A stretch of DNA of 64,000 nt. Source: Micromonosporaceae bacterium. Lineage in GTDB: Bacteria > Actinomycetota > Actinomycetes > Mycobacteriales > Micromonosporaceae. Shown piece by piece: positions 47,177 through 64,000 of this stretch; within the stretch, counting starts at the first letter, position 1; every line of letters begins with the position of its first letter. A program made the position numbers and the translations under genes. The stretch covers positions 10,456 to 74,455 of the forward strand of contig DATFRR010000010.1 of assembly GCA_035263025.1 (NCBI GenBank). The letters are read 5' to 3'. The notes beneath the pieces are model-generated. The model ran no database searches. It saw only the letters and a program-made list of their open reading frames with translations, and was not told where the DNA came from.

Positions 47177-47215
47177 TTGACAGCTTGCGCCAACCGATGT
47201 GCAATATATTGCATG
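47177..47215 (+). promoter_or_regulatory. Candidate promoter (TTGACA-17 nt-TGCAAT) with a perfect 14-bp palindrome, predicting a leaderless gntR-acdS transcript
   Basis: TTGACA is at 47177-47182, followed by a 17-nt spacer and TGCAAT at 47200-47205. The palindrome TGCAATATATTGCA (47200-47213) ends on the A of ATG 47213. No RBS-like sequence lies upstream of that ATG. Confidence 0.5.
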
Positions 47216-47872
47216 CCGATCCCGCCTGGCGCGGCCGCCGTGCTGTCCCGATCCTTGCTGCGTGATGACGTCTACGTGCGTTTGCGCGATGCGATCGTGG
47301 ACGGCACCTTCGCGCCTGGCGAGCAGCTGCGCGACGGTGAACTCGCGCAGTGGCTCGGCGTCTCCCGTACGCCGGTTCGTGAGGCGCTGTTGCGGTTGGG
47401 CCAGGCCGGGCTGGTGGTCGTGGCGCCCGGCCGATCCACCGTGGTTAGCACGCTCGACGCTCGCGCGGCGCACGATGCGCAGGCGGTTGTCGCAGCGATG
47501 CATGAACTCGCCGTTGCCACCGCCGTGCCGCTTCTGACCCGCGCCGACCTGGCACAGATGCGGGAGGCGAACGCTCGGTTCGACGCGGCGATCGCGACGG
47601 GCGACGTCGACGCGGCGCTCGCGGCCGACGACGAATTCCACGGCATCCCGGTGCGGGCCGCCGGAAACGCGGCCGTCGTCGCGGTCCTGGAGCAGTTCAC
47701 CCCGCTGGTACGCCGACTCGAGCGGATCCGTTTCGCCAGCCTCGCGGGGCGCGGTTCGGTTGCCCGGCACACCCGGATGGTCGACCTGTGTGAACAGGGT
47801 GACGTGGCCGCCGCAGCCGCCGTGTCCCGCGAGACCTGGCAGACCCTTGACCCCAACGGAGACCTGCGATGA
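47213..47872 (+). CDS. GntR-family (FadR/FCD-type) transcriptional regulator
   Basis: The wHTH is [31 protein letters not shown]. The FCD-like helical C-terminus carries DDEFHGIP and SVARHTRMV. An ATGA overlap links it to acdS. Confidence 0.85.
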
Positions 47873-48888
47873 AGCTTCACGAGTTCCCCCGGCATCAGCT
47901 CACCTTTGGCGCGAGCCCAATCCACCCGCTCAACCGGCTCGCCGACCACCTCGGCGGCGCTCGCATCTGGGCGAAGCGCGAGGACGTCAATAGTGGCCTG
48001 GCGTTCGGCGGCAACAAGATCCGCAAGCTGGAGTACATCGTCCCCGACGTGCTCAACAGCGGCGCCGACACGCTGGTGTCGATCGGCGGCGTGCAGAGCA
48101 ACCACACCCGCCAGGTCGCGGCGGTGGCGGCGCACCTCGGGCTCAAGTGTCGGCTCGTTCAGGAGCGCTGGGTGGACTGGGATGACCCGGTCAACGACAA
48201 GGTCGGCAACGTCCTGCTCAGCCGCATTATGGGCGCCGACGTCCGGTTAGATCCGGCAGGCTTCGACATAGGCGTACGCCCTTCGTGGCAGGACGCGATC
48301 TCGGAGGTCGAGGCGGCCGGCGGCAAACCGTACGCGATCCCGGCCGGCGCGTCCGAGCATCCGCTGGGCGGGCTGGGCTTCGCCAACTGGGCCTTCGAGG
48401 TCGCCGAACAGGAGAAGCAGCTCGGAGTCTTCTTCGACACGATCATCGTCTGTACCGTGACGGGCTCGACGCACGCCGGCATGATCGCGGGGTTTGCGTG
48501 TCTGCAAGAGAACGATGGCCGTGCCCGCCGGGTACTCGGGATCGACGCCTCGGCCACCTTGGAAGCGACCCGCGCCCAGGTCGAGCGCATCGCCCGAAAC
48601 ACCGCGGCACTCATTGAGCTCGACCGCGACCTGCGCCCGGACGAGATCACTGTGCTCGAAGGCTGGGCGGGGGACTACTACGGGATCCCGGTCGAGTCGA
48701 CGGTCGAGGCCATCCGACTCTCCGGCCGACTAGAGGGCATGATTATCGACCCGGTCTACGAGGGCAAATCGATGGCCGGACTCATCGATCTCGTGACCTC
48801 CGGCGAGATCGGCGCGACCTCCACGGTTCTCTACGCACACCTCGGCGGGCAGCCTGCGCTCAACGCGTACTCGCGGATCTTCGCCTGA
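47869..48888 (+). CDS. acdS: 1-aminocyclopropane-1-carboxylate (ACC) deaminase
   Basis: The PLP Lys is in [11 protein letters not shown]. Other motifs are [22 protein letters not shown] and [15 protein letters not shown]. The Glu (YEGKS) and Leu (HLGG) residues that distinguish true ACC deaminases from D-cysteine desulfhydrases are both present. Confidence 0.9.
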
Positions 48889-52323: not shown

Positions 52324-53148
52324 TCACCGAGCGGACATCGCTGCGCCGACGATGCCCGCGTTGTTTCGCAGGATGGCCGGAACAACCTCGGTGTCGACGG
52401 TTATGTGCGGAAGGTACTTATCGGACTTCTTACTGATGCCACCGCCGATGATGATCAGGTCCGGCCAGAAGAGACGGTGTAGAAGGTCTAGATACTGCCC
52501 GAGGCGGTGAGCGTAGGCGTCCCAGCTGAGACCGTCTCGCTGGCGCGCCGAGTCGGCGGCGAAGTCCTCAGCGTCGCCATGGTGCAGATGGAGATGGCCG
52601 AGTTCAGTGTTCGGAACCAGTTGTCCGTCGATGAACATGCCGCTTCCGATGCCGGTGCCGAGCGTGACAACGATGATGAGGCCGGACCGGCCGGCGCCTG
52701 CGCCGAACCGAACCTCGGCGAGCCCGGCCGCGTCGGCGTCATTGACGACGCCGACGTGGCGCCCGGTTGCCTTCTCGAACACCTTGACCGCGTTCACGCC
52801 GATCCAGCCGGAATCGACGTTGGCAGCGGTGCGTACGACGTCTCCGCTGACCACACACGGCAGCGTCAGGCCGACCGGACCGTCGACGCCAATCCGGCTG
52901 AGCAGTTCAGCGACCACGTCGGCGACGGCATGCGGTGTCGACGGCGCAGGGGTTGGCAACCGAAGCCGCTCAATGATCAATTCGCCCGTGTCGAGATCGA
53001 CGGTCGCACCCTTGATTCCGGTGCCGCCAATGTCGATGCCGACCGCGGACTTCGTTGACGCACCTGCTTCTGTCACCAGGCCTCCCAGAATGCGCCCGCC
53101 CGGACACGCGATGCCACGCCCCGACGTCGGCACCGGGGCATCGCCCAC
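52324..53148 (-). CDS. ppgK: Polyphosphate glucokinase (ROK family)
   Basis: Motifs are [36 protein letters not shown] and IIGGGISKK. It is collinear with mycobacterial PpgK as I remember it. The exact start is uncertain. Confidence 0.85.
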
Positions 53149-53178: not shown

Positions 53179-53907
53179 TTAGCGTGGCACATCGCCGGCC
53201 GTCGCGTGCTCGGCGGCGGCGAACACACCCAGTGGGTGATCCAACGAGGCCGCCGGCGCGACGGCGGTAATCAGTAGGCCATCCACCGCCATCCAGCGGC
53301 CGCTGCATGTGCCTCGGGGGGAGCCGACCGCAACCGGGTCATCATGCGGCGTCAGCGTTGCGACGAAAGAGTTCTCGTTCAAGTTCAACGCTATCTCCGC
53401 GTCCTCAAAGCCGAGCCACGCGCGCATGAGTGGATACCACGCCTTGTAAACGGACTCCTTGGCACTAAAGAGCAATCGATCCCAGCGCACCGCTGGCACC
53501 GCATCGGCGAGCCGAGACACCGCGACACGCTCGCGGGACGTCAACACCGTTGAGACCAACGCGTTTGGCAGCGGCTCGTTGGGCTCGGCGTCGATGCCGA
53601 TCGTCCGTACTATCGCAGCCCTGGCGACCGCCGCTGCGCGGTAGCCGTCGCAATGGGTCATGCTTCCGACGATTCCGGGTGGCCAGAGCGGATCCCGACC
53701 GGTTCCCGACGGGATCGGTACGGGTGGCAGGCCGAGCGCGGCGAGTGCGCGGCGCGCACAATGTCGCACTGTCGCGTACTCCCGACGACGCCGATCGACA
53801 GCGCCGCTGATGAAGGCCTCCTCTTCTGGGAACAGGACGGCGGCGGATTCATCCGTGGTCGCCTCCGCGCTGACCACCGCCGTCGGCAGGATCGCCTCGA
53901 TGGTCAT
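53179..53907 (-). CDS. 4'-phosphopantetheinyl transferase, Sfp/EntD (PptT-like) type
   Basis: Motifs are RRREYATVRHCARRAL, WPPGIVGSMTHC, GIDAEP and FSAKESVYKAW. The start is ATG 53907, preceded by GGAGGAAG. Confidence 0.85.
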   Translation of the reverse strand: MTIEAILPTAVVSAEATTDESAAVLFPEEEAFISGAVDRRRREYATVRHCARRALAALGLPPVPIPSGTGRDPLWPPGIVGSMTHCDGYRAAAVARAAIVRTIGIDAEPNEPLPNALVSTVLTSRERVAVSRLADAVPAVRWDRLLFSAKESVYKAWYPLMRAWLGFEDAEIALNLNENSFVATLTPHDDPVAVGSPRGTCSGRWMAVDGLLITAVAPAASLDHPLGVFAAAEHATAGDVPR

Positions 53908-54632
53908 CGTCTTCCTCCGGGTGGCGGACACGTGTTCGTGGGACTGCGCGGCCGGACTCCGGCCCGCGGCACTAAGACCTCATACGATCTTGTGCCCACT
54001 AGGCGTTCAATGTGTCAGCTTGGCGAAACGGATTGCGCGGCGACACGGTGACACGTTGACGGCACGGCCGGGGGATCCAGCGGACCGCGGGCACAGGGCC
54101 GGCGGCAGAGGCCGCTCGACGGACGCGGCCGAGATGACTCGCGCCACACGTTCGGCGCGATGGTCCACATTGGCCAGTCGCCGTGTTCTACGGCTTGTCG
54201 ATCATCGTCGCATTGATCCGTGATCGGATTGGCGCTCCTACAAGTTGTCGTGACAGCGTGACGCGTGCAAGGCGAGTTGGTTGATGTGATCCGTCTCGCG
54301 TACCCCCGCTCTGGATCCCGGTTTGATCTTTGTTTTTCCGCAATTTTCGTCCGGCGCTTCCTGGCTGCCGATACCGTTCCGGTTGATGAGGTTGCGTGCT
54401 GAACGAGTATGTGGAATGCGGTTGAGCGTTCGGCGCAGCGCATCTTCGGTTGCCGGTGTGTACAGGAGACGACGCACCAGGAGACGGTGACACAAGGACT
54501 TCCACGAATTCGACGGTCGTGTCCCGCGAATCGCCAGAATCGTCGACAACATCGATGCCGGTCGGTATCCGCGCGGTGGCATTGGCTGGCGTCCTGTCCA
54601 CCTTTCTTTCCCGCTGGGAGGCATGAGCGCTC

Positions 54633-57254
54633 GTGCTGGACAAGTCTGTCGATGTACTGACGGTTGATCTGGCTGAGTCGACGACCAGTGACGGCACCCT
54701 CGTGGGCCCGGCCGGCACCGAACAGATCCTGGCCGCGGTGCTGGCCGACGTGCTGGATGTCGATCGGGTGTCGGTTGACAGCCACTTCTTCGACGACCTG
54801 GGCGCCAACTCGCTGACGATGGCGCACTTCTGTGCGCGCGTTCGAAAGCGGGACGACCTGCCGTCGGTGTCGATGAAGGACATCTATCGCAGCCCAACCG
54901 TCAAGAGTCTCGCGGAAGATCTCGCCGAGGAAGTTCCCGAGCCGACCGAATCCGCTGTCGCCACGTCGACCGAGGCAACGGTTGAGGTGCCGACCCGCGC
55001 CAGCACGCGACAATACGTGCTCTGCGGTGTGCTTCAGCTCTTGACCTTCCTCGCGTACACCGTGCTGCTTGCTCTCATTGTCACGGCCGGGTACGAGTGG
55101 ATCGCCTCGGGCACCAGCATTCTCGACTACTACATCCGAGCCGTGATCGTCGGCGCGGCCACGTTCGTCGCACTGTGCGTCCTGCCGATCGCCGCGAAGT
55201 GGACGCTGGTCGGCCGATGGAAGTCGCGCGAGATCCGGATATGGAGCCTCGGGTACGTACGGTTCTGGATCGTCAAGACATTGGTGCAACGCAATCTTCT
55301 GGTGCTGCTGTTCGTCGGCTCGCCGCTCTACCCGCTCTACCTGCGGGCGCTGGGTGCCAAGGTCGGGCGCGGCGTCGCAATCTTCTCCAGATCGGTGCCG
55401 GTGTGCACCGACCTGTTGACCATTGGCGACGGCACCGTCGTTCGCAAGGACTCACACCTCACGTGCTACCGCGCTCACGCTGGCGTGCTCCAGACGGGGC
55501 CAGTGACGCTCGGAAGGGACGTATTCGTCGGAGAGATGACGGTCGTCGACATCAACACCTCGATGGGCGACGGCGCGCAACTCGGCCATACGTCCTCGCT
55601 TCACCCCGGACAGGCCGTGCCGGCCGGCGAACACTGGCACGGATCCCCCGCGCAGAAGACCGAGATGAACTATCGGACGGTCGAGCCCGCCAAGTGTGGT
55701 GTCATGCGGCGCGTCAGTTATTCGCTGATGCAGGTGTTGATCCTGTTGGTGATCGACGTGCCGATCGCGCTCGCCGCCGCGGACGTTCTGCTTCGTGAAA
55801 TCCCCCGCCTTGGACGGCTCGAGTTCGGACCGCACGTCCTGACGAGCTGGACGTTCTACGTCGTCGGGCTGGTGGTCTCGTTCGCACTGTTCTTCGGCAC
55901 GACCATCGTTGGCCTGGTGCTTGTGACGACGATTCCTCGGCTGTTCAACCTCGCGCTCAAGCCGGGCAAGACATATCGGCTGTACGGCATCCACTACGCG
56001 ATCCACCGAGCGGTCGAGCGCCGGACCAACAGTCAGTTTTTCAAGACGCTCTTTGGCGACAGCTCCAGCATCGTCGGCTACCTCCGCTTGATCGGGTATC
56101 GGCTCCGGAACGTCGAGCAAACCGGGTCGAACTTCGGCACGTACCTCAAACACAGCAATCCCTACCTGAGTGCGGTCGGCAGCGGAACGATGGTGGCGGA
56201 CGGGCTGTCCATCATCAACGCCGACTTCTCGAGCAGTTCATTCCGGCTGAACCCGGCGACCATTGGGCCACAGAACTTTCTCGGCAATGCCATCGCCTAT
56301 CCGTCGCAGGGCAAGACCGGCGACGACTGCCTGATCGCAACCAAGGCGATGGTGCCGATCGAAGGCGAAATCCGGGAGGGCGTTGGGCTTCTGGGCTCGC
56401 CGAGCTTCGAGATCCCTCGGTCGGTCCAGCGCGACACCCAATTCGATCATCTGCGGACCGGACCGTCGCTGCATCGCGCGCTCACCGCAAAAAACAGGCA
56501 CAACGCCGTCACCGCCGCCGGCTACTTGTTTGGCCGATGGATGCATGTCTACGGGCTCACCTTGCTGGCGTGGACAACGACCCGCTTGTACGGCCTTCAG
56601 GGCACCTGGGTGATCGCACTGGCGTCGATCCTGACCCTCGTGTGGACCACCCTCTTCTTCGCCGTCGTGGAGCGTGCCGTGCAGGTGTTCTTGCCGTTGC
56701 GACCGCTCTACTGCTCGATCTACGACCGCAGGTTCTGGCGACACGAACGGTTCTGGAAGAGCGCGGCGGTGACGATGCACCTCCACGCCTTCGACGGCAC
56801 GCCGTTCAAGTCGGGCGTGTGGAGATTGCTGGGCGTACGAATGGGCCGGCGGGTGTTCGACGACGGGTGCGGGATTCCGGAAAAGACGCTCGTGGCGATC
56901 GGCGATGACACGACCCTCAACGCGGGTTCGACCATCCAGTGTCACTCGCAGGAGGACGGCGCCTTCAAGTCCGACCGCATCACGATCGGCGCCGGCTGCA
57001 CGGTGGGCGTCGGCGCCTGGGTCCACTACGGCGTGACGATGGGCGACGGAGCGATGCTCGGCCCCGATGCGTTCCTGATGAAGGGCGAGGACGTCCCACC
57101 GCAGGCGCGGTGGGCCGGCAACCCGGCCCGGGACCTGCGCGATGACCGTGCACTCACCATGCAGCTCCGTGGCACCGGCAGCGACAGCAGGCAGCCGGCC
57201 GCGGTGACGGCCGACACGTCCGCGGCGACTGGAGGAACACGATGCAACGGGTAA
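54633..57254 (+). CDS. Carrier (T) domain fused to a six-TM, triple hexapeptide-repeat membrane domain of the Pls/PosA NRPS-terminal type; no adenylation domain
   Basis: 873 aa. The T domain carries HFFDDLGANSLTMAH, with the Ser codon at 54810-54812. Three pairs of hydrophobic segments lie at about aa 128-188, 358-433 and 630-685. Each pair is followed by a soluble left-handed-beta-helix-like block, for example LGAKVGRGVAIFS...IGDGTVV...VTLGRDVFVGE and LGVRMGRRVFDD...IGDDTTLNAGSTI...ITIGAGCTVGVGAWV. Confidence 0.8.
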   Translation: MLDKSVDVLTVDLAESTTSDGTLVGPAGTEQILAAVLADVLDVDRVSVDSHFFDDLGANSLTMAHFCARVRKRDDLPSVSMKDIYRSPTVKSLAEDLAEEVPEPTESAVATSTEATVEVPTRASTRQYVLCGVLQLLTFLAYTVLLALIVTAGYEWIASGTSILDYYIRAVIVGAATFVALCVLPIAAKWTLVGRWKSREIRIWSLGYVRFWIVKTLVQRNLLVLLFVGSPLYPLYLRALGAKVGRGVAIFSRSVPVCTDLLTIGDGTVVRKDSHLTCYRAHAGVLQTGPVTLGRDVFVGEMTVVDINTSMGDGAQLGHTSSLHPGQAVPAGEHWHGSPAQKTEMNYRTVEPAKCGVMRRVSYSLMQVLILLVIDVPIALAAADVLLREIPRLGRLEFGPHVLTSWTFYVVGLVVSFALFFGTTIVGLVLVTTIPRLFNLALKPGKTYRLYGIHYAIHRAVERRTNSQFFKTLFGDSSSIVGYLRLIGYRLRNVEQTGSNFGTYLKHSNPYLSAVGSGTMVADGLSIINADFSSSSFRLNPATIGPQNFLGNAIAYPSQGKTGDDCLIATKAMVPIEGEIREGVGLLGSPSFEIPRSVQRDTQFDHLRTGPSLHRALTAKNRHNAVTAAGYLFGRWMHVYGLTLLAWTTTRLYGLQGTWVIALASILTLVWTTLFFAVVERAVQVFLPLRPLYCSIYDRRFWRHERFWKSAAVTMHLHAFDGTPFKSGVWRLLGVRMGRRVFDDGCGIPEKTLVAIGDDTTLNAGSTIQCHSQEDGAFKSDRITIGAGCTVGVGAWVHYGVTMGDGAMLGPDAFLMKGEDVPPQARWAGNPARDLRDDRALTMQLRGTGSDSRQPAAVTADTSAATGGTRCNG

Positions 57255-59734
57255 CCGCCGCCGGTCGGGAATACTGGACGAGCGCGTTGGCGTCTGGCGG
57301 CTTGGCGTCAGTTCCACGGTGGACGGTGAACCCAACTCCCGGCGTGGCAACGTTCGAGGTTGTCATCCCACACGACACCGTGGCGGCCCTGCACGGGCTC
57401 GCTGGCGCGATGGGCATCCGACTCAGCGCGGTCTTGCTAGCGGCGCACGCCAAGGTGATTGCCGCGCTGTGCGGCGAAGCTCACGTCACGACCGGCTATG
57501 TTGCGACGGACGGCGACGATCCGCTGCCGTGCGTACTGACGACCGACGCTGACTCGTGGCGTGGTCTGCTGCTCGACTCTCATCGCGCGCAGGCACACCT
57601 GTTGCCGCACAAGGACTTTCCGATCCACGACCTGATGCGCGAACTGCACGTGTCCGGGCCGCTGTTCGACACGATGTTCGACGCGACCGGTGGCGATGGA
57701 AGTCTTGCCGACGAGGTGGCATTGCGGGTTGGTGCCGTACATCGGGGCGAGGAGCTAGTGCTGCGAACGCGGTACCGCACCGATGTGCTCGACGCCGACA
57801 GTGCCGCGCGAGTCACCGGCTACTACCTCTCCGCGCTCGCGCAGATCGCTACCGAGCCGGATGCCGAGCATCGTCGGCGCAGCCTAGTCTCCGCCGAGGA
57901 GCACGATTTCCAGCTCGACGCGCTTGCCGGGCCGCATCGGGAGCTGCCCGATGGGCGAGTGCATGAGCTTTTCGAAGCGCGGGTACGCCAGTGCCCGGAT
58001 TCCGTGGCAGCTGTGCACGGCAACGTCCGGTGGACCTATCGAGAACTCAACGCCCGCGCCAACCGCTTGGCGCGCGCCTTGCTGGCAGAGGGGCTGCGAC
58101 GCGAAGACGTCGTCGCGGTGGTGACCGAGCGCAACCTCGATTGGATGGCCGCTGTTCTCGCGATCTTCAAGGCTGGTGGGGCGTACCTCCCGATCGAGCC
58201 GCACTTTCCGAGCGATCGCATCGCGACTACGTTGTCGCGCGCCGATTGCCACCTCGTGCTGACCGAACCTGCCAGCACCAAAACGCTAAGCCAGGCCGTC
58301 GCGTCGCGAGCCGACGTTCACACCATGTTCATCCAGGACGCCTACGAAACGGACCGTGCCGAGGACGATCTCGACATTGCGGTTGCGCCGGATCAGCTCG
58401 CGTACATCTACTTCACCTCCGGGTCGACAGGCGAGCCGAAGGGTGCGATGTGCGAGCACGCCGGGATGCTGAACCACATGTACGCCAAGATCGACGATCT
58501 GGACATCGCCGAGGGGTCGATCGTCGCTCAGACTGCCCCACAGTGCTTCGACATCTCCTTGTGGCAGCTCATCTCCGCGGTCCTGGTCGGCGGACAGACG
58601 TTGATAGTCGAGCAGGACGTGATTCTGGACGTACCGCGGTTCACCGACAAGGTTGTCGACGCCCGGGTCGCGGTGCTGCAGGTGGTCCCGTCCTACCTCG
58701 AAGCCGTGGTCTCGCACCTGGAGCAGAGCCCGCAGAAGTTGGCCGACCTACGGTGCGTCTCGGTTACCGGTGAGGCGCTGAAGAAGGAGCTCACCGAGCG
58801 TTGGTTCGCCATCGAGCCAGACATCAAGCTCGTCAACGCGTACGGGCTGACCGAGACCTCGGACGACACGAACCACGAGGTGATGGAAGGCGTACCGAAT
58901 GGGTCAGGTGTGCCGCTCGGCCGGCCGGTCAACAACGTGCGCGTCTACATCGTCGACGAGCACCTGTCGCCCGTTCCGCTCGGCGCGCCCGGCGCGATCG
59001 TGTTCTCCGGTGTGTGTGTCGGACGCGGCTACGTGAACGATCCGGAGCGCACTCGGCTGGCCTTCATGGCCGACCCGCATCGCATCGGCGAACGCCTTTA
59101 CGTGGGCGGTGACTACGGCCGCTGGCGACCCGACGGCAAGGTCGAGTTCCTCGGTAGACATGATTCTCAGGTCAAAATCAACGGCTTCCGCATCGAGATC
59201 GGGGAGATCGAGAACACCCTCCTGCGTGTGCCCGACGTGCGCGACGGCGCCGTGGTGATCACCGAGCGCATCGATGCGAGCAAGCATCTCGTGGCGTTCT
59301 ACTCGGGCACGCGGCCACTGGAACTGGACATCCTGCGGAGCCGACTCTCCGAGTCGCTACCCGAATACATGGTCCCGAGCGCGTTTCATTGGCGAGACAC
59401 TCTGCCACTCACCGCCAACGGGAAGATCGACAAGAAGTCCTTGGCCGCGCTAGCCAGCGACCTAGACATTCTCGACGACCGGGATCCGCCCAGCACGCCC
59501 ACCGAGCAGCGCCTCGCGATCGCCTGGGCGCGAGTGCTCGGAATCTCCGAGGATCAGATCGGTCGCCAGGATCATTTCTTCGACCGCGGCGGCACGTCGC
59601 TGGCCGCGGTGAAGCTCGCGATCACGCTGGACCGCGTGGTGTCACTCAAGGACGTTACACAGCATCCCGTGCTCGCCGATCTGGCCGGCGTCATCGACGG
59701 TCTGCGTACCGGCGAACTCCTGGCCTCTTCTTGA
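57242..59734 (+). CDS. NRPS: C-terminal half of a condensation domain (no HHxxxDG) + adenylation domain + carrier domain; no TE/R domain
   Basis: 830 aa. The A-domain cores are LAYIYFTSGSTGEPKG, FDISLWQ, NAYGLTET, GDYGRWRPDGKVEFLGRHDSQVKINGFRIE and NGKIDKK. The T domain is FFDRGGTSLAAVKL. It overlaps the upstream gene by 13 nt. Confidence 0.9.
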   Translation: MQRVTAAGREYWTSALASGGLASVPRWTVNPTPGVATFEVVIPHDTVAALHGLAGAMGIRLSAVLLAAHAKVIAALCGEAHVTTGYVATDGDDPLPCVLTTDADSWRGLLLDSHRAQAHLLPHKDFPIHDLMRELHVSGPLFDTMFDATGGDGSLADEVALRVGAVHRGEELVLRTRYRTDVLDADSAARVTGYYLSALAQIATEPDAEHRRRSLVSAEEHDFQLDALAGPHRELPDGRVHELFEARVRQCPDSVAAVHGNVRWTYRELNARANRLARALLAEGLRREDVVAVVTERNLDWMAAVLAIFKAGGAYLPIEPHFPSDRIATTLSRADCHLVLTEPASTKTLSQAVASRADVHTMFIQDAYETDRAEDDLDIAVAPDQLAYIYFTSGSTGEPKGAMCEHAGMLNHMYAKIDDLDIAEGSIVAQTAPQCFDISLWQLISAVLVGGQTLIVEQDVILDVPRFTDKVVDARVAVLQVVPSYLEAVVSHLEQSPQKLADLRCVSVTGEALKKELTERWFAIEPDIKLVNAYGLTETSDDTNHEVMEGVPNGSGVPLGRPVNNVRVYIVDEHLSPVPLGAPGAIVFSGVCVGRGYVNDPERTRLAFMADPHRIGERLYVGGDYGRWRPDGKVEFLGRHDSQVKINGFRIEIGEIENTLLRVPDVRDGAVVITERIDASKHLVAFYSGTRPLELDILRSRLSESLPEYMVPSAFHWRDTLPLTANGKIDKKSLAALASDLDILDDRDPPSTPTEQRLAIAWARVLGISEDQIGRQDHFFDRGGTSLAAVKLAITLDRVVSLKDVTQHPVLADLAGVIDGLRTGELLASS

Positions 59735-59757
59735 CGAGAACCGAAAGGACCTTACAG

Positions 59758-60759
59758 ATGTCGTCCTCTTCCGCAATACAGCTGATCGACGTGGACCGCC
59801 AACCAGGCAGGCCGCCGATGATGCAGGTCGACCAGCCGGCAGATGCGCCGGCGTGGGCGACCGAGCACCGGGATGGATTGCGGGCTCTCGTCGCCGTGCA
59901 CGGCGCAATCCTGGTCCGCGGCCTCGGGCTGCATGACGGGGCCGAGATCGCGATGGTGTTCCGCAACCTGTCCAACAGCCTCATGACAGAACGAGAGGCC
60001 TTTGCGCCGCGCCGGATCTATGCCGACGGCGTGTACTCGTCCGCGACGTGGCCGGCGAACCAGCCGATGTGCATGCATCACGAACTGAGCTACGCGCTCG
60101 AAGTGCCGAGCCTGATGCTGTTCGCGTGCGTCACGCCGCCGTCGCAGGGCGGCGCGACCGGCGTGGCCGACTCACCTAGCGTGCTGCGCGCACTGCCGGC
60201 TGAGTTGACCGAGCGCCTGCGCCGTGATGGTTGGCTGCTCACTCGCAACTACAACGACGACATCGGGGCGTCGATCGGCGATGCGTTCGGCACCGACGAT
60301 CCCAGCGCGGTGGAGGCCTATTGCCGCGCGAACGCGATCGACTTCGAGTGGCAGCCCGATGGCGGACTGCGCACTCAGCAACGCCGCGCCGCCGTGGTGC
60401 CTCACCCCGTCACCGGCGAGCCCTGCTGGTTCAACCAGATCGCCTTCCTCAACGAGTGGACCATCGCTCCGGAGATCCGTGAATACCTCGTCGACATGTA
60501 CGGCGAGGACGGCCTGCCATTCAACACCCGCTTCGGCAACGGTGATCCGATTACGGAGGACACCGTCATGCTGCTCAACGGGGTGTACGAGGCGAACACC
60601 GCCCGGGAACCGTGGCGGGCGGGCGACCTGATGCTGGTCGACAACATCCGCACCGCGCACAGCCGGGAAGCCTACGAGGGACCGCGAGAAGTGCTCGTCG
60701 GCATGGCGGACGCCGTCCGCCTCGACAACTCACCGACTGGCGAGGTGACGGCCGCATGA
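59758..60759 (+). CDS. TauD/TfdA-family Fe(II)/2-oxoglutarate dioxygenase, SyrP-like
   Basis: The motifs are MHHELSY (HxE) and the distal His in DNIRTAHSR. The overall pattern resembles NRPS-associated amino-acid beta-hydroxylases. The RBS is GAAAGGA. Confidence 0.8.
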   Translation: MSSSSAIQLIDVDRQPGRPPMMQVDQPADAPAWATEHRDGLRALVAVHGAILVRGLGLHDGAEIAMVFRNLSNSLMTEREAFAPRRIYADGVYSSATWPANQPMCMHHELSYALEVPSLMLFACVTPPSQGGATGVADSPSVLRALPAELTERLRRDGWLLTRNYNDDIGASIGDAFGTDDPSAVEAYCRANAIDFEWQPDGGLRTQQRRAAVVPHPVTGEPCWFNQIAFLNEWTIAPEIREYLVDMYGEDGLPFNTRFGNGDPITEDTVMLLNGVYEANTAREPWRAGDLMLVDNIRTAHSREAYEGPREVLVGMADAVRLDNSPTGEVTAA

Positions 60760-61826
60760 CCGCGATCGAAACAGCTGCCGGGCAAGGCTCCACCAACCGG
60801 CGCAGCGCCGTACCGCCGTTCGCGATGGTCTCGGGCGCGCAGGTCCAGCAGGTCTTGGACGGGCGCGAGAAGGAGATTGTGTCGTTGGTCGAGGCGACGT
60901 ATCGGCTACACGGCGCTGGCGATTCCGTGAACCCGCCGTCGTACTTTCTCCGTTTCCCCGACCGTCCGTCCGCCCGCATCATCGCGCTTCCCGCGTCGAT
61001 CGGCGGTGACGTTCGGGTAGACGGACTGAAGTGGGTTTCCAGCTTTCCCGACAACGTCAGCATCGGTGTGCCGCGCGCATCAGCTGTACTCATCCTGAAC
61101 GATCACGACACGGGCTACCCGTTTGCATGTCTCGAAGGCTCGATCATCAGCGCGACGAGGACCGCCGCGTCGGCGGCGCTCGCCGCGGACTGGCTGAGCC
61201 GGCAACGGCGACGCCCGCGGAGCGTGGGGTTCATCGGAGTCGGTCTGATCGCGCGTTACATCCACGCGTTCATGGCCAGCACCGGCTGGACATTCGACGA
61301 GATCGGCGTCCACGATCTGTCCCCGGACAGCGCATCCGGTTTCCGCGGCTATTTGGAACGCACAGATGTCGCCGGCCGGATCTCCATTTACGACCGCCCG
61401 GAAGACCTGATCCGGTCCAGCGACATGGTGGTGTTTGCCACCGTCGCGAGCCGTCCGTACGTCACGGACGCGTCGTGGTTCGACCACAATCCAGTGGTGT
61501 TGCACGTGTCGCTTCGCGACCTGGCGCCTGAGATCCTGCTCGGCTCGACCAACATCCTCGACGACGTTGACCACTGCATGAAGGCCGACACGTCGCCGCA
61601 TTTGGCAGAACAGCTCACTGGCAATCGTGACTTCCTGACCGGCACGCTGGACGACGTGATGTCCGGCCGGGTAACGGTGCCCGCGCACCGGCCGGCGGTG
61701 TTCTCGCCGTTCGGTCTCGGCGTGCTGGATCTGGCCGTCGGCAAGTTCGTCTACGACGAGGTGGCCCGGTCCGGCGAGCTGCGTGTCGTTGACAACTTCT
61801 TCCACGAGTTACATCGCTACGGCTAA
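60756..61826 (+). CDS. sbnB: SbnB-type NAD-dependent dehydrogenase (ornithine cyclodeaminase/mu-crystallin fold) for L-2,3-diaminopropionate synthesis
   Basis: The OCD fold has the Rossmann motif VGFIGVGLIARY, and the gene is immediately paired with an SbnA-type gene. An ATGA overlap links it to the dioxygenase gene. Confidence 0.75.
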   Translation: MTAIETAAGQGSTNRRSAVPPFAMVSGAQVQQVLDGREKEIVSLVEATYRLHGAGDSVNPPSYFLRFPDRPSARIIALPASIGGDVRVDGLKWVSSFPDNVSIGVPRASAVLILNDHDTGYPFACLEGSIISATRTAASAALAADWLSRQRRRPRSVGFIGVGLIARYIHAFMASTGWTFDEIGVHDLSPDSASGFRGYLERTDVAGRISIYDRPEDLIRSSDMVVFATVASRPYVTDASWFDHNPVVLHVSLRDLAPEILLGSTNILDDVDHCMKADTSPHLAEQLTGNRDFLTGTLDDVMSGRVTVPAHRPAVFSPFGLGVLDLAVGKFVYDEVARSGELRVVDNFFHELHRYG

Positions 61827-61861
61827 CGGCCTAGTGCTCTGCGACAGATGAGGAGGCCACC

Positions 61862-62848
61862 ATGCCAGTCATTTCCGTTCCTGAGGGCTTCAACGAAGAG
61901 GAGCTCTACGTCGACCTTCAGTCGATGTTCGGGCACTCGCTCTACCTGAAGTGTGAGGGCTTTAACTTCGCCGGGTCGATCAAGCTCAAGGCCGCGGCCG
62001 AGATGGTCGAGGCAGCGGAGCAGGACGGAATTCTTCGGCCCGACTCGATCCTGATCGAGTCGTCATCGGGGAACCTGGGCGTGGCGCTCAGCATGATTGC
62101 CGCGAGCAAGGGCTACCAGTTCGTGTGCGTGACAGATTCGCGGTGCAACCTGACCACCAGGCGTGCTATGGAGGCGCTGGGCAGCCGGGTGCACATCATC
62201 AACGATCCGGACGCGAAGGGCGGTCTCCTTGGTGCGCGCCTCGACTACGTCCGCGAGCAGTGCGAGAACGATGACCGGTACGTGTGGTTCAACCAGTACG
62301 CCAACCCACACAACTGGCTGGCGCACTACCGCCGTACCGCACCGGCGATCGCCCGGAAGTTCCCTAACCTGGACGTACTGTTCGTCGGCGCGGGTACGAC
62401 CGGGACGTTGATGGGCTGCGCGCGCTTCTTCCGGGACTGGCACTGGCCGGTGCGGATCGTCGCGGTGGACAGCGTCGGGTCGGTGACGTTCGGTGGGACG
62501 TCGGGTCGCCGGATGATCCCCGGACTGGGTACGAGCGTACGGCCGCCGATCCTCGACGAGGCCTACGTTGACGACGTCGTGCGAATCGAGGAAGCGGATA
62601 CCATTCGTGCCTGCCATCGCCTGGCCAGAAGCGGATTCCTGTTCGGCGGATCCACCGGAACGATTGTCAGTGGCGCCGTCCAATGGCTAGGCCAGCACAA
62701 CGGCCATGGCCTCACGGCCGTCGCCATCGCACCAGATCTTGGCGAGCGCTACCTGGACACGGTGTACCAAACGAACTGGCTCCAGGATCTCTACGGCGAA
62801 GAGGTGCTCGACACCGCCGAGCTGACCGCGGGCGCCCGGACCGGTTGA
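61862..62848 (+). CDS. sbnA: SbnA-type PLP-dependent enzyme (cysteine-synthase fold) for L-2,3-diaminopropionate synthesis
   Basis: The motifs are LKCEGFNFAGSIKLK (PLP Lys), ESSSGNLG, WFNQYANPHNW, IVAVDSVGSVTFGG, PGLGTSVRPPIL, GGSTGTIV and PDLGERYLDTVY. They are collinear with S. aureus SbnA as I remember it. The RBS is GAGGAGG. Confidence 0.85.
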   Translation: MPVISVPEGFNEEELYVDLQSMFGHSLYLKCEGFNFAGSIKLKAAAEMVEAAEQDGILRPDSILIESSSGNLGVALSMIAASKGYQFVCVTDSRCNLTTRRAMEALGSRVHIINDPDAKGGLLGARLDYVREQCENDDRYVWFNQYANPHNWLAHYRRTAPAIARKFPNLDVLFVGAGTTGTLMGCARFFRDWHWPVRIVAVDSVGSVTFGGTSGRRMIPGLGTSVRPPILDEAYVDDVVRIEEADTIRACHRLARSGFLFGGSTGTIVSGAVQWLGQHNGHGLTAVAIAPDLGERYLDTVYQTNWLQDLYGEEVLDTAELTAGARTG

Positions 62849-62884
62849 TACGCGAGATAACCGTGCGCATTAGAGTGCCGACTC

Positions 62885-63427
62885 GTGACCGTGTTCGAGC
62901 CGGGCTGTGTGATCGACCGGCGTGAAGTGCTGCACGGGCTGCCGTGGCTCGTAGTGCCTGTTCAGGTCGTGCGCGACGATGGCGAAGAACTGGCCGTCTA
63001 CGTGGCCGAGGGAACGCCGTTCACGTTTCCCGATCATCCATTCGGTCGCCACCCGTGGAGTCAGCGCACGCGTTGGACGGACACCAGCGTGTTACAGGTG
63101 CACCGCGCGGGTGACGCGCACGCCGTGTGGGGCATGTACGAGCAGGGCGTCTTTGCCGGGTGGTATATCAACTTCCAAGCACCGCTACACCGATGGAGCG
63201 GCGGTTTCGACACGCTTGATCACGGCGTGGACATGTGGATGCCGAACGGCGCGAGCGAGTGGCAGTGGAAGGACCTCGAAGACGTAGCGCGGCTGGTGCA
63301 GGATGGCCGCATTACCGAGGACGAGGCTCGTGACGTGTGGTCCGAGACGGAACGCGTCGCTAGTTCACTGCGTCGCGGCGCTCGGTGGTGGCAGCACTGG
63401 GACGCGTGGAGTCCCGGCCATCGCTAG
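62885..63427 (+). CDS. DUF402-family protein (FomD-like nucleotide phosphatase fold)
   Basis: The sequence WYINFQAPL...FDTLDHGVDMWM...WQWKDLEDV...GRITEDEA is the DUF402 pattern. The start codon is GTG. Confidence 0.7.
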   Translation: MTVFEPGCVIDRREVLHGLPWLVVPVQVVRDDGEELAVYVAEGTPFTFPDHPFGRHPWSQRTRWTDTSVLQVHRAGDAHAVWGMYEQGVFAGWYINFQAPLHRWSGGFDTLDHGVDMWMPNGASEWQWKDLEDVARLVQDGRITEDEARDVWSETERVASSLRRGARWWQHWDAWSPGHR

Positions 63428-63945
63428 GTGTGAGTCGGCTTAGCCAGCAACGAAACCAAGTCAGACGTCGAGATGACGCCGCACGGCACTGCGGCGGCAT
63501 CCACCACCACGACCGCATCGGTGCCGGCTGCGTGCATCACGCGCGCCACATCGGCGAGCGTCGCGCGCATGCCGACCGTGCAACTCGACGCGCCCACAAC
63601 GTTCCTGACACGCACGCGCTCGAACGTCATCGGCACACGCGCCCACCATGAGGCGACCGCACGGTCGCTGAGCATCCCCAGGCAGCGCCCGTCGGCATCG
63701 ACCACGACCAGATGACGCACGCCGTACGCGGCGAACGTCTGCAACGCCATGGCGAGCGTCGCCTCGGCGTCCAGCGTGATCGGCGGACGACCCATCACCG
63801 CCGTCACCGGGCAGCCCGCCAGGTCCGCGCGCCGTAACGGAACGCGGTGATCATTGCGTACCAGCCGTCCCGAACCCGGACCGGCAGGCTCCGGCCGCAC
63901 CTGCGTCACAGCCATGACAACCTCCCACCGCATCGGCCGCGTCAT
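63424..63945 (-). CDS. CBS-domain pair protein
   Basis: There are two CBS-like units, VMGRPPITLDAEATLAMALQTFAAYGVRHLVVVDADGRCLGMLSDRAV and VVGASSCTVGMRATLADVARVMHAAGTDAVVVVDAAAVPCGVISTSDLV. The start is uncertain. Confidence 0.65.
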   Translation of the reverse strand: MTRPMRWEVVMAVTQVRPEPAGPGSGRLVRNDHRVPLRRADLAGCPVTAVMGRPPITLDAEATLAMALQTFAAYGVRHLVVVDADGRCLGMLSDRAVASWWARVPMTFERVRVRNVVGASSCTVGMRATLADVARVMHAAGTDAVVVVDAAAVPCGVISTSDLVSLLAKPTHT

Positions 63946-64000
63946 GCGGCCTCACCTCGACCATGCGCCGTCGACACGGCGTGGCCTCAGTGCCGCATGG

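What the first reader, a model, noticed from the sequence alone, without database searches (positions are those of the whole stretch)
53179..63427. Split, permuted Pls/PosA-like polymerising NRPS locus with its own L-Dap supply, hydroxylase and PPTase (candidate new cationic homopoly-amino-acid system)
The locus has eight elements, in order:
- (a) An Sfp/EntD-type PPTase on the minus strand.
- (b) A 725-nt, comparatively AT-richer non-coding gap.
- (c) A T-domain protein fused to a membrane domain with three pairs of TM segments, each followed by a hexapeptide-repeat soluble domain. This is the hallmark C-terminal architecture of epsilon-poly-L-lysine synthetase and its relatives (the Pls/PosA family).
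- (d) Overlapping it by 13 nt, a half-C / A / T protein.
- (e) A SyrP/TauD-type dioxygenase.
- (f, g) SbnB and SbnA, the two-enzyme route from O-phospho-L-serine and glutamate to L-2,3-diaminopropionate.
- (h) A DUF402 protein.

Nowhere in the window is there an intact condensation domain (no HHxxxDG), a thioesterase or a reductase domain. Chain formation and release must therefore fall to the membrane hexapeptide-repeat protein, as in Pls.

Known Pls-type synthetases are single A-T-(TM/C)3 polypeptides. Here the A domain is on a separate protein encoded after the polymerase part, both proteins carry a T domain, and a tailoring oxygenase is embedded. Poly(L-Dap) producers with SbnA/SbnB-like genes next to a single-chain Pls-like synthetase have been reported in Streptomyces. 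The fission, the second carrier, the half-C domain and the dioxygenase make this locus architecturally distinct. Its product is unpredictable in detail; it could be a hydroxylated poly-Dap, or a short Dap-derived oligomer.
Basis: partly seen in the sequence, partly recalled or inferred. Interest (0 to 1): 0.85.

Follow-up and report, generated by a model that had tools for sequence, protein, structure and literature searches.

The report
Split poly-diaminopropionate-type synthetase gene cassette
This is a real, intact five-gene cassette, shared by dozens of actinobacterial species but apparently unstudied, in which a membrane polymerase of the polylysine-synthetase type has lost its own amino-acid-activating domain and relies on a separate enzyme specific for diaminopropionate plus an oxygenase, so it probably makes a new modified cationic peptide polymer.

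Summary
The core is five genes (54633-62848):
- an adenylation-less T-(TM/C)3 protein that matches TIGR02353 (Pls/PosA) end to end;
- a C-lobe/A/T protein;
- a TauD-family oxygenase;
- SbnB and SbnA.

This five-gene set recurs, mostly in the same order, in at least 56 species-representative genomes (Streptomyces, Amycolatopsis, Pseudonocardia, Kibdelosporangium, Micromonosporaceae and others). It sits in unrelated genomic contexts, so it is not unique to this window. The PPTase and the DUF402 gene are lineage-specific neighbours, not core.

The "fission/permutation" reading is not supported.
- The separate A domain is a canonical NRPS type. Its almost invariant pocket, DIWQSTADDK, matches the L-Dap "mode 3" pocket of SulM-A3, not the Pls/PosA type.
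- Several relatives still carry a decayed Pls-type A-domain remnant in cis. The in-cis A domain was therefore lost and replaced in trans.

The half-C domain is the C-terminal lobe of a dehydrating-type condensation domain. A thioesterase follows the second carrier in about 60% of relatives but not here.

The product is unknown. A Dap-based, oxidatively tailored isopeptide oligomer or polymer is the best inference. I found no paper describing this system. Verdict: an uncharacterised new variant of a known kind.

The parts
54633..57254 (+). A-less Pls/PosA-type membrane synthetase: T1-(TM1-2)-C1-(TM3-4)-C2-(TM5-6)-C3, 873 aa
   Evidence: TIGR02353 scores 738.6 bits (cut-off 423.1) across the full profile, and PF00550 is present. 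Hydropathy, the AlphaFold model and hhalign support the TM pairs and soluble repeats. Identity to homologues in 80 genome loci is 57-95%.
54714..54929 (+). Carrier domain T1 of the membrane synthetase (Ser60 in LGANSL)
   Evidence: PF00550 at residues 32-95. Ser60 is invariant in 38 homologues. Position confirmed.
55020..57128 (+). Pls/PosA C-terminal membrane domain: six TM helices and three tandem soluble domains
   Evidence: TIGR02353 covers residues 130-832. TM helices at 125-158, 163-192, 357-394, 406-441, 606-656 and 659-686. C1 and C3 are homologous at 99% probability.
57242..59734 (+). C-lobe / A / T2 protein (830 aa), a truncated terminal-NRPS-module fragment. Its start overlaps the upstream gene by 13 nt.
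   Evidence: Pfam and NCBIfam domain hits. Orthologues lie directly downstream of the Pls-like gene in about 60 loci, with or without a C-terminal TE.
57266..57952 (+). C-terminal lobe of a condensation domain, lacking the N-lobe and the HHxxxDG motif. Closest to the dehydrating (CmodAA) type.
   Evidence: A profile of 28 orthologues searched against PDB hits McyA 8jbr residues 207-465 (81.5 bits) and AmbE 7r9x residues 199-427 (59 bits). All other hits score 32 bits or less.
57971..59425 (+). Adenylation domain, predicted L-2,3-diaminopropionate-specific (code DIWQSTADDK)
   Evidence: TIGR01733 scores 387 bits. Motifs A3, A8 and A10 are intact. The code is invariant in 57 of 61 orthologues. 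It matches the SulA3 'mode 3' Dap pocket (PMC12042044).
59510..59692 (+). Carrier domain T2 (Ser786 in GGTSL)
   Evidence: PF00550 at residues 757-817. Serine position.
59758..60759 (+). TauD/TfdA-family Fe(II)/2-oxoglutarate oxygenase (333 aa)
   Evidence: PF02668 scores 137 bits. Triad H107-x-E109...H301 with R303. Gene call from a near-identical contig. Identity across genera is 72-93%.
60756..61826 (+). SbnB-family dehydrogenase (L-Dap synthesis, step 2)
   Evidence: TIGR03944 scores 414 bits, cut-off 326.9. Conserved in the cassette.
61862..62848 (+). SbnA-family PLP enzyme (L-Dap synthesis, step 1)
   Evidence: TIGR03945 scores 387.4 bits, cut-off 349.95. Conserved in the cassette, sometimes relocated upstream of the Pls-like gene.
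53908..54632 (.). 725-nt divergent intergenic region; presumed promoter region of the cassette
   Evidence: GC is 62.3% against 66.8% for the window. No Rfam family matches. No upstream motif is shared beyond close relatives.
53179..53907 (-). Sfp-type PPTase: an accessory, lineage-specific neighbour that may or may not serve the two carriers
   Evidence: PF17837 and PF01648 are present, but PptT and Npt scores are below their cut-offs. It is adjacent only in L004 and L085 (the window's lineage). Unrelated PPTases are adjacent in 6 other loci.
62885..63427 (+). DUF402/FomD-like protein, 36 nt downstream on the same strand. Not part of the conserved cassette.
   Evidence: PF04167 scores 30.9 bits. 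FomD scores 74 bits, far below its cut-off of 320. It is absent from all loci except the near-identical contig L085.

Best explanation
The locus is a self-contained five-gene cassette for a cationic peptide built from L-2,3-diaminopropionate (Dap).

Proposed steps:
1. SbnA and SbnB make L-Dap from O-phosphoserine and glutamate, releasing 2-oxoglutarate. This follows from family membership.
2. The C-lobe/A/T2 protein is a truncated terminal-NRPS-module fragment. It adenylates L-Dap and loads its own carrier T2. Because it is the only intact A domain in the cassette, it presumably also loads carrier T1 of the membrane protein in trans. The substrate is predicted from the pocket; trans loading is inferred.
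3. The TauD oxygenase uses 2-oxoglutarate to oxidise carrier-bound Dap, most likely on T2. This is inferred from gene linkage, an intact iron triad and the precedent of carrier-dependent TauD hydroxylases.
4. The A-less Pls/PosA-type membrane enzyme uses its three tandem acyltransferase-like domains to join T-bound Dap-derived units through amide (isopeptide) bonds and extrudes an oligo- or polycation. This is inferred from homology to Pls, PosA and the poly-Dap synthetase.

Evolution: a classical A-T-(TM/C)3 synthetase lost its in-cis A domain after a SulM-A3-like Dap-activating A-T(-TE) unit took over.
For: Domain assignments are above curated cut-offs: TIGR02353, TIGR03944, TIGR03945, TIGR01733 and PF02668.

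The five genes are co-linear.
- They overlap or are separated by 36 nt or less.
- They co-occur in 60 of 85 loci examined, in unrelated flanks.

The A domain points to L-Dap.
- The pocket DIWQSTADDK is invariant in 57 of 61 orthologues.
- It matches the crystallographically defined L-Dap 'mode 3' pocket of SulA3, DVWEMNADD: Asp at positions 8 and 9, with homologues carrying Ile at position 2 and Gln at position 4 (PMC12042044).
- The A-domain catalytic motifs are intact.
- SulA3 is the best-scoring A-core-only structure, at 264 bits. Chains I take to be PosA-type score 188 bits or less, and PosA 8g95/8g96 is not among the 60 best.

Cis A-domain remnants survive in relatives.
- They have a Pls-type pocket with Glu at code position 3.
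- Their best single-domain PDB hit is PosA.
- They lack the A-sub domain, and in L027 the P-loop is also degenerate.
- L084 and L027 still carry the trans cassette alongside.

TauD has a complete HxE...H triad. It is more conserved (72-93%) than the polymerase (57-80%).

The membrane protein has six TM helices and three repeats.
Against: - No product or enzyme activity has been observed.
- TauD's substrate and chemistry are unknown. Sequence and fold searches give only generic family hits.
- Simple beta-hydroxylation of Dap would give an unstable carbinolamine, so 'hydroxy-poly-Dap' is chemically doubtful.
- Trans loading of T1 by the A domain is untested.
- The variable TE, present in 35 of 60 complete loci, shows that release or editing logic differs between lineages and is not understood.
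- Orphan A-less homologues exist with no A domain within 10 kb. The membrane enzyme may therefore have a role not tied to this A domain.
- The C2 domain is poorly modelled.
Confidence: 0.55

Rival explanations
1. One reading: a classical Pls-type synthetase underwent gene fission and permutation. Under this model the A-T protein encoded downstream is the original Pls A-T half.
For: The A domain is encoded immediately after the polymerase part and is translationally coupled to it by a 13-nt overlap.
Against: - The trans A domain has the canonical NRPS C-A linker and C-lobe.
- It has a 'mode 3' pocket rather than the CHPA 'mode 1' pocket with Glu at position 3.
- It scores better against SulA3 and canonical A domains than against PosA.
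- Relatives carry a separate, decayed Pls-type A domain still fused in cis.
Confidence: 0.05
2. The membrane protein is not a polymerase. It carries out one or a few acyl transfers. Either it makes a short Dap-derived small molecule (a dipeptide or a modified amino acid), or it transfers a Dap-derived unit to a cell-envelope acceptor, in the manner of Dlt- or MprF-type aminoacylation.
For: - Two carriers plus an optional TE resemble a two-module assembly line rather than an iterative one-carrier polymerase.
- Some homologues carry an extra TM helix and a C-terminal peptidoglycan-binding domain (PF01471).
- Orphan copies exist without any nearby A domain.
- The oxygenase and the dehydrating-type C-lobe are typical of small-molecule tailoring.
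Against: - The full-length, high-scoring TIGR02353 match and the three-repeat architecture are those of enzymes shown to polymerise: Pls, PosA and the PDAP synthetase.
- The decayed cis A domains show descent from a classical polymer synthetase.
Confidence: 0.25
3. The locus is a fragment of an ordinary multimodular NRPS whose C and TE partners lie beyond the window end at 64000.
For: The window ends 55 nt after the convergent CBS gene (63424-63945), so downstream sequence is unseen. The A-T protein looks like a truncated terminal module.
Against: - In loci with 10 kb of flank on each side, no further NRPS genes accompany the cassette apart from cis remnants. Only 4 distant, weak A-domain hits were found.
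- Flanks differ between lineages.
- The gene after DUF402 is convergent.
Confidence: 0.03
4. The window's copy is a decaying, non-functional version, because it has lost the TE that its closest relatives retain.
For: The window and L004 are sister to a TE-bearing clade (L001, L003, L005-L007).
Against: - All five ORFs are intact with their catalytic motifs.
- 25 complete TE-less loci form large clades in several genera, so the TE-less state is stable.
- A near-identical contig shows the same gene set.
Confidence: 0.07

Closest known systems
Poly(L-diaminopropionic acid) synthetase with its SbnA/SbnB-like Dap genes in Streptomyces albulus PD-1 (PMC4668381)
   Same: Both have a Pls-type membrane domain in place of C and TE domains. 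Both use L-Dap made by a cysteine-synthase-like and an ornithine-cyclodeaminase-like pair. Both presumably give a cationic isopeptide product.
   Different: PDAPs is a single A-T-(TM/C)3 polypeptide. Here the polymerase has no A domain. Dap is activated by a separate C-lobe/A/T protein with a different pocket type. There is a second carrier, and a strictly conserved TauD oxygenase.
Epsilon-poly-L-lysine synthetase Pls and delta-poly-L-ornithine synthetase PosA (TIGR02353 family; PMC10522769)
   Same: T domain, six TM helices and three tandem acyltransferase-like domains. The window protein matches the family profile end to end at 738 bits.
   Different: Pls and PosA carry an in-cis A domain whose side-chain anchor is Glu at code position 3. 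They need no tailoring enzyme and use a single carrier.
SulM module 3 (C-A-T-TE) of sulfazecin biosynthesis, with SulG/SulH Dap supply (PMC12042044)
   Same: The L-Dap pocket with Asp at code positions 8 and 9 ('mode 3'). The module context is C-A-T-TE, which relatives of the window protein keep as C-lobe-A-T-TE.
   Different: SulM-A3 sits in a full assembly line whose TE forms a beta-lactam. Here the C domain is reduced to its C-lobe, the TE is absent, and the partner is a Pls-type membrane enzyme.
AmbE/AmbC/AmbD (AMB biosynthesis) and SyrP-type systems: TauD-family hydroxylases acting on carrier-bound amino acids, followed by a dehydrating C domain (PMC10880069)
   Same: A TauD-family oxygenase is encoded next to an A-T unit. 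The C-lobe is most similar to the dehydrating C domains of McyA and AmbE.
   Different: Only the C-lobe is present, without the catalytic HHxxxDG lobe, so dehydration by this domain is unlikely. The substrate is Dap, not Glu or Asp. No sequence-level orthology of the TauD to AmbC, AmbD or SyrP was shown.

Membership tests
Pls/PosA (cationic homopoly-amino-acid synthetase) family | C-terminal ~700-aa membrane domain matching TIGR02353 above the curated cut-off | tested here: met
   738.6 bits against a cut-off of 423.1, covering profile positions 1-695 of 695.
Pls/PosA (cationic homopoly-amino-acid synthetase) family | Six TM helices in three pairs, interleaved with three tandem soluble acyltransferase-like domains | tested here: met
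   Shown by hydropathy and by AlphaFold helices. C1 and C3 align at 99% hhalign probability; C1 and C2 only weakly, at E 1.6e-4.
Pls/PosA (cationic homopoly-amino-acid synthetase) family | N-terminal adenylation domain in the same polypeptide, with the Glu side-chain anchor at code position 3 | tested here: not met
   The 873-aa protein has no AMP-binding domain. The trans A domain has Trp at position 3 and Asp at positions 8 and 9. Only relatives keep decayed cis remnants.
Pls/PosA (cationic homopoly-amino-acid synthetase) family | Carrier domain with a phosphopantetheinyl serine directly before the membrane domain | tested here: met
   PF00550 at residues 32-95. Ser60 is invariant in 38 homologues.
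Pls/PosA (cationic homopoly-amino-acid synthetase) family | Product is an isopeptide-linked homopolymer of a diamino acid | not testable with these tools
   Requires expression and mass spectrometry or NMR.
SbnA/SbnB L-2,3-diaminopropionate synthase pair | Both proteins match the equivalog models TIGR03945 and TIGR03944 above cut-off and are adjacent | tested here: met
   SbnA 387.4 bits against 349.95; SbnB 414 bits against 326.9. The genes are 35 nt apart.
SulM-A3-type ('mode 3') L-Dap-activating adenylation domain | Asp at specificity-code positions 8 and 9, Trp at 3, Ile or Val at 2, Gln or Glu at 4 | tested here: met
   The code DIWQSTADDK was extracted by motif register, using the GrsA PheA numbering recalled from memory. 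It holds in 57 of 61 orthologues. The criteria come from PMC12042044. Substrate activation itself is not testable here.
TauD/TfdA Fe(II)/2-oxoglutarate dioxygenases | PF02668 above cut-off and a His-x-Asp/Glu...His iron triad | tested here: met
   137.2 bits against a cut-off of 27. Triad H107, E109 and H301, with R303.
SyrP-type carrier-protein-dependent amino-acid beta-hydroxylases | Orthology to SyrP/TbetaH enzymes and action on a T-bound aminoacyl thioester | tested here: inconclusive
   No reference sequences were available. One database entry is named 'SyrP-like'. PDB and Foldseek hits are generic TauD-family members.
Dehydrating (CmodAA) condensation domains | Complete two-lobe C domain with the HHxxxDG motif in the N-lobe | tested here: not met
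   Only the C-lobe is present, aligning to McyA residues 207-465 and AmbE residues 199-427. No HHxxxDG occurs anywhere in the locus.
Sfp-type 4'-phosphopantetheinyl transferases | 4PPT_N plus ACPS domains | tested here: met
   PF17837 96.5 bits and PF01648 57.4 bits. The PptT and Npt 'exception' models score below their cut-offs. Dedication to this cassette is not shown.

The most novel reading that the evidence does not exclude
This would be the first Pls-type polymerase uncoupled from its own adenylation domain. In this reading it works with two carrier proteins: T1 is the donor shuttle, and T2 holds an oxygenase-modified Dap unit that acts as primer, anchor or terminator. The product would be a previously unseen, oxidatively tailored poly- or oligo-Dap. 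That would make it the first tailoring step known in cationic homopoly-amino-acid biosynthesis, and a natural example of re-programming a Pls-type polymerase with a foreign A domain.
Probability: 0.35. Interest if true: 0.8.

Novelty: new variant of a known kind. Interest (0 to 1): 0.62.

Why it matters
Cationic isopeptide polymers such as epsilon-polylysine are commercial antimicrobials and cell-penetrating carriers. All characterised synthetases are single A-T-membrane polypeptides, and their monomer choice has been hard to re-engineer.

A natural clade in which the membrane polymerase accepts monomers from a separate, unrelated A domain would show that the polymerase can be fed in trans. 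This clade also includes a conserved oxygenase and a second carrier. Together these would open a route to new polymers and add a tailoring dimension to this product class.

The cassette is present in many cultured Streptomyces, Amycolatopsis and Pseudonocardia strains, for example S. atratus, S. coerulescens and Kibdelosporangium banguiense. It is therefore directly testable.

Tried and rejected
- Rfam scan of the 725-nt gap: only a chance snoRNA hit at E 0.2.
- Search for a shared operator or leader motif upstream of 64 orthologous cassettes: only the ribosome-binding site and clade-specific words were found.
- Functional assignment of TauD:
  - PDB sequence search gave At3g21360, SqoD (9yut; PMC12951627) and PvcB.
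  - NCBIfam gave only sub-threshold fragments.
  - The AlphaFold model has pLDDT 64, and Foldseek gave generic TauD/AtsK/ScoE folds.
  - None of these is informative about substrate.
- Idea that the half-C domain is the 'interface domain' that partners siderophore beta-hydroxylases (Reitz 2019): the paper is not held and no reference sequences were available, so this stays a lead from memory. The profile search instead pointed to dehydrating C domains.
- Idea that the upstream PLP enzyme (47869-48888) is a Dap ammonia-lyase: rejected. It is an ACC deaminase.
- Literature searches for an A-less Pls system, a hydroxylated Dap polymer or NAPAA clusters with TauD: nothing relevant in the held library. 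One search was wasted on 'posaconazole' matches.
- The comb-like multi-Dap-poly-Dap polymer (Takehara 2021, cited in PMC9606270) was considered as the product. It does not explain the oxygenase, and, as far as I recall, no gene link has been reported.
- Sequence search for a solved structure of a Pls membrane domain: none in the PDB copy.
Full report
**1. What is in the sequence**

ORF listing and HMM scans confirm the eight elements.

- **PPTase.** 53179-53907/53931 (-) is an Sfp-type PPTase with 4PPT_N and ACPS domains. It resembles PptT and Npt, but its scores of about 215 bits are below their cut-offs of 365-370.
- **Gap.** A 725-nt gap follows (53908-54632). Its GC content is 62.3% against 66.8% for the window.
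- **Pls-like protein.** 54633-57254 encodes 873 aa.
  - It has a carrier domain (Ser60).
  - It matches TIGR02353, "Pls/PosA family NRPS", end to end: 738.6 bits against a cut-off of 423.1.
  - It has no adenylation domain.
- **A-T protein.** 57242-59734 overlaps the previous gene by 13 nt and encodes 830 aa.
  - Its N-terminal ~240 aa match only the tail of the Pfam condensation model.
  - An intact A domain follows, with A3 SGSTGEPKG, A8 GRHDSQVK and A10 NGKID.
  - A carrier with Ser786 follows that.
- **Tailoring and supply genes.**
  - TauD-family oxygenase at 59758-60759, with triad H107/E109/H301.
  - SbnB at 60756-61826 (TIGR03944, 414 bits).
  - SbnA at 61862-62848 (TIGR03945, 387 bits).
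  - A DUF402/FomD-like protein at 62885-63427.
- Gene starts come from gene calls on a near-identical metagenome contig.
- **No other NRPS parts.** No HHxxxDG motif lies in any real ORF. None of the other large ORFs I scanned is NRPS or PKS.

**2. Anatomy of the membrane protein**

- Hydropathy and an AlphaFold model built on 38 homologues (mean pLDDT 62.8) agree. They give a T domain at 29-99 and TM helices at 125-158, 163-192, 357-394, 406-441, 606-656 and 659-686.
- Soluble domains follow each helix pair. C1 and C3 are beta-helix-like.
  - They are clearly homologous to each other (hhalign 99%, 29% identity).
  - They resemble hexapeptide acyltransferases.
- C2 aligns only weakly, though in the same register (E 1.6e-4), and is poorly modelled.
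- No solved structure of such a membrane domain was found by sequence.

**3. The cassette is widespread**

- The protein search returned more than 5,000 relatives. About 115 of the 120 best cluster representatives (55-100% identical) carry T domains but no AMP-binding domain.
The best 80 loci were fetched.
- I ran tblastn with the window's proteins against these loci.
  - The five genes occur together in 60 of 85 loci, 56 of them among the 80 species genomes.
  - The order is Pls-like, C-lobe/A/T, TauD, SbnB, SbnA. SbnA is sometimes moved upstream.
- The carriers include Streptomyces (among them S. atratus and S. coerulescens), Amycolatopsis, Pseudonocardia, Kibdelosporangium, and MAGs of Micromonosporaceae, Streptosporangiaceae and Propionibacteriaceae.
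- Flanking genes differ between lineages, so the five genes form a self-contained, mobile unit.
- The closest genome is a Micromonosporaceae MAG (95% amino-acid identity).
- DUF402 appears only in the near-identical contig L085. The Sfp-type PPTase appears only in the window's lineage and, more distantly, in two other loci. An AcpS-type PPTase sits upstream in four related loci. These genes are accessory neighbours, not core.

**4. The A domain: specificity and origin**

- I read the Stachelhaus positions from the conserved motifs, using the GrsA PheA numbering from memory. This gives DIWQSTADDK. In an alignment of 61 orthologues the code is identical in 57, and the other four differ at one position.
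- The SulM-A3 study (PMC12042044) defines an L-Dap pocket from crystal structures.
  - The pocket is D-V-W-E-M-N-A-D-D, called "mode 3", in which the two Asp at positions 8 and 9 hold the beta-amine.
  - The study notes that database homologues have Ile at position 2 and often Gln at position 4. That is exactly the pattern here.
  - The same paper states that Pls, PosA and the other homopolymer synthetases use "mode 1", with Glu at position 3.
- Against PDB sequences, the window's A domain aligns with canonical NRPS modules including the C-A linker (LgrA, PvdL). Among A-core-only structures it scores best with SulA3: 264 bits, against 246 for TycA. Chains I take to be PosA-type score 188 bits or less.
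- The A domain is therefore not the detached front half of a Pls.

**5. Evidence for loss and replacement of the cis A domain**

- Several close relatives of the membrane protein (60-64% identical) still begin with an A domain: P0038, P0043, P0045, P0067, P0116 and loci L015, L017, L025, L027.
- In every one of the nine, AMP-binding_C is not detected. In most, the core is also truncated (profile ends at 238-335 of 384).
- In the most complete case, L027 from the isolate Pseudonocardia sp. H11422, the P-loop reads SDSDGRPTG and motifs A9 and A10 are missing.
- These remnants have the Pls-type FDFSVEE pocket, with Glu at position 3. Their best single-domain PDB hit is PosA, at 232 bits against 122 for SulA3.
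- L084 and L027 nevertheless carry the full trans cassette.
- The simplest history is this: a classical A-T-(TM/C)3 synthetase acquired a SulA3-like A-T(-TE)/TauD unit, and the cis A domain then decayed and was deleted. This is replacement in trans, not fission and permutation.

**6. The half-C domain and the thioesterase**

- A profile of 28 orthologous N-termini was searched against PDB.
  - Residues 9-237 align with the C-terminal lobe of C domains.
  - The strongest hits are McyA (81.5 bits) and the dehydrating C domain of AmbE (7r9x, 59 bits). All other C domains score 32 bits or less.
- According to the review PMC10880069, AmbE-C2 dehydrates a residue previously hydroxylated on the carrier by the Fe/2-oxoglutarate enzymes AmbC and AmbD.
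- Here the catalytic N-lobe is absent. I regard the C-lobe as a structural or docking remnant of a C-A-T-TE terminal module, with an ancestry in oxygenase-associated modules.
- The A-T protein comes in two length classes: about 1081-1122 aa with a TE (GHSSG nucleophile) and about 824-889 aa without one. Among complete loci, 35 have the TE and 25 lack it.
- In a neighbour-joining tree the window and L004 are sister to a TE-bearing clade, implying a fairly recent loss. Large TE-less clades also exist elsewhere.

**7. The oxygenase**

- It is a bona fide TauD-family enzyme, not a halogenase, and it is present in the great majority of cassette-bearing loci.
- Its identity across genera is 72-93% in the protein search, and 61-80% by tblastn across the 80 species loci. 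That is higher than for the polymerase.
- Names in the databases are generic; one entry is called "SyrP-like".
- Sequence and fold searches give only generic relatives: At3g21360, SqoD, TauD, AtsK and ScoE.
- Its placement next to an A-T protein fits the known pattern of carrier-dependent hydroxylases. SbnB releases one 2-oxoglutarate per Dap, which is established for staphyloferrin B and would supply the co-substrate.
- Chemically, hydroxylating C3 of Dap would give a carbinolamine that should lose ammonia or water. The outcome may therefore be an aldehyde, a dehydro residue or a chain-end modification rather than a stable hydroxy-Dap. This is inference only.

**8. Most likely mechanism and its rivals**

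- I commit, at about 0.55, to a Dap-based isopeptide oligomer or polymer made as follows.
  - The A-less Pls-type enzyme builds the chain from monomers activated in trans.
  - The oxygenase modifies carrier-bound Dap.
  - T2 (plus the TE where present) provides a primer, anchor or release function.
- The main rival, at about 0.25, is that the membrane enzyme makes only one or a few bonds. It would then give a small molecule or a cell-envelope modification.
  - This is suggested by the two-carrier layout.
  - It is also suggested by relatives with an extra TM helix and a peptidoglycan-binding domain.
  - Orphan copies with no A domain nearby point the same way; L052, for example, lies between ClpB-like and NhaA genes.
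- An ordinary multimodular NRPS continuing beyond the window is very unlikely, given the 60 complete cassettes.

**9. Novelty**

- I found no paper on an A-less Pls-type system or on this cassette in the held library. The PosA survey of the family does not mention one. That library is incomplete, so prior work cannot be excluded.
- Databases already label these proteins "Pls/PosA family NRPS".
- I rate it a new variant of a known kind. It is real, intact, widespread and experimentally accessible. The window's copy is one ordinary member of the clade.

Noticed in passing
L012, L031, L032, L045, L051, L052, L058, L070, L080, L081 (for example L052:10001-12532): Orphan A-less Pls/PosA-type genes have no A domain, TauD or SbnA/B within 10 kb. 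In Actinacidiphila glaucinigra the gene lies between a ClpB-like ATPase and an NhaA-DsbA fusion. Some genomes hold both a cassette copy and an orphan copy (L022+L032, L050+L069). The orphans might share the trans A-T protein or have another role.
   Followed up: partly
P0016, P0027, P0061 (relatives of window 54633-57254): Relatives vary in the number of tandem carrier domains, from 1 to at least 6 near-identical T repeats. They also vary in C-terminal additions: an extra TM helix plus a peptidoglycan-binding domain (PF01471), or a large NTPase/TPR-like extension.
   Followed up: no
L027:8279-13126; L025:1151-5248; L017:8945-12574; L015:285-3896; L084:10001-13915: A graded series of decaying in-cis A domains is fused to the polymerase. 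It runs from a nearly complete core with a mutated P-loop to truncation after motif A5. This looks like domain loss in progress.
   Followed up: yes
window 47177-48888: A GntR-family regulator is followed by a clear 1-aminocyclopropane-1-carboxylate deaminase (TIGR01274, 526 bits). This is unusual for an actinomycete and suggests a plant-associated lifestyle. It appears unrelated to the cassette.
   Followed up: partly
window 52324-53148 (-): A polyphosphate glucokinase (NF045942, 338 bits) lies directly beside the PPTase. Together with a trypsin-like protease and an M15 peptidase further upstream, it marks the left flank as ordinary housekeeping genes.
   Followed up: partly
window 54633-62848: The cassette's GC content (64.9%) is slightly below the window average (66.8%), and the cassette sits in different genomic contexts in each lineage. 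This is consistent with horizontal transfer.
   Followed up: partly
L012: A MAG labelled 'Candidatus Melainabacteria' carries a 62%-identical A-less Pls-type gene on a 1.36-Mb contig. This is probably a taxonomic mislabel or a binning problem.
   Followed up: no
window 62885-63427 and 63424-63945: The DUF402/FomD-like gene is probably co-transcribed with the cassette here (36-nt gap). It overlaps by 4 nt the end of a convergent tandem-CBS-domain gene. CBS-domain genes also lie near the cassette in L001, L005 and L006 (44-47% identity), in other positions.
   Followed up: no
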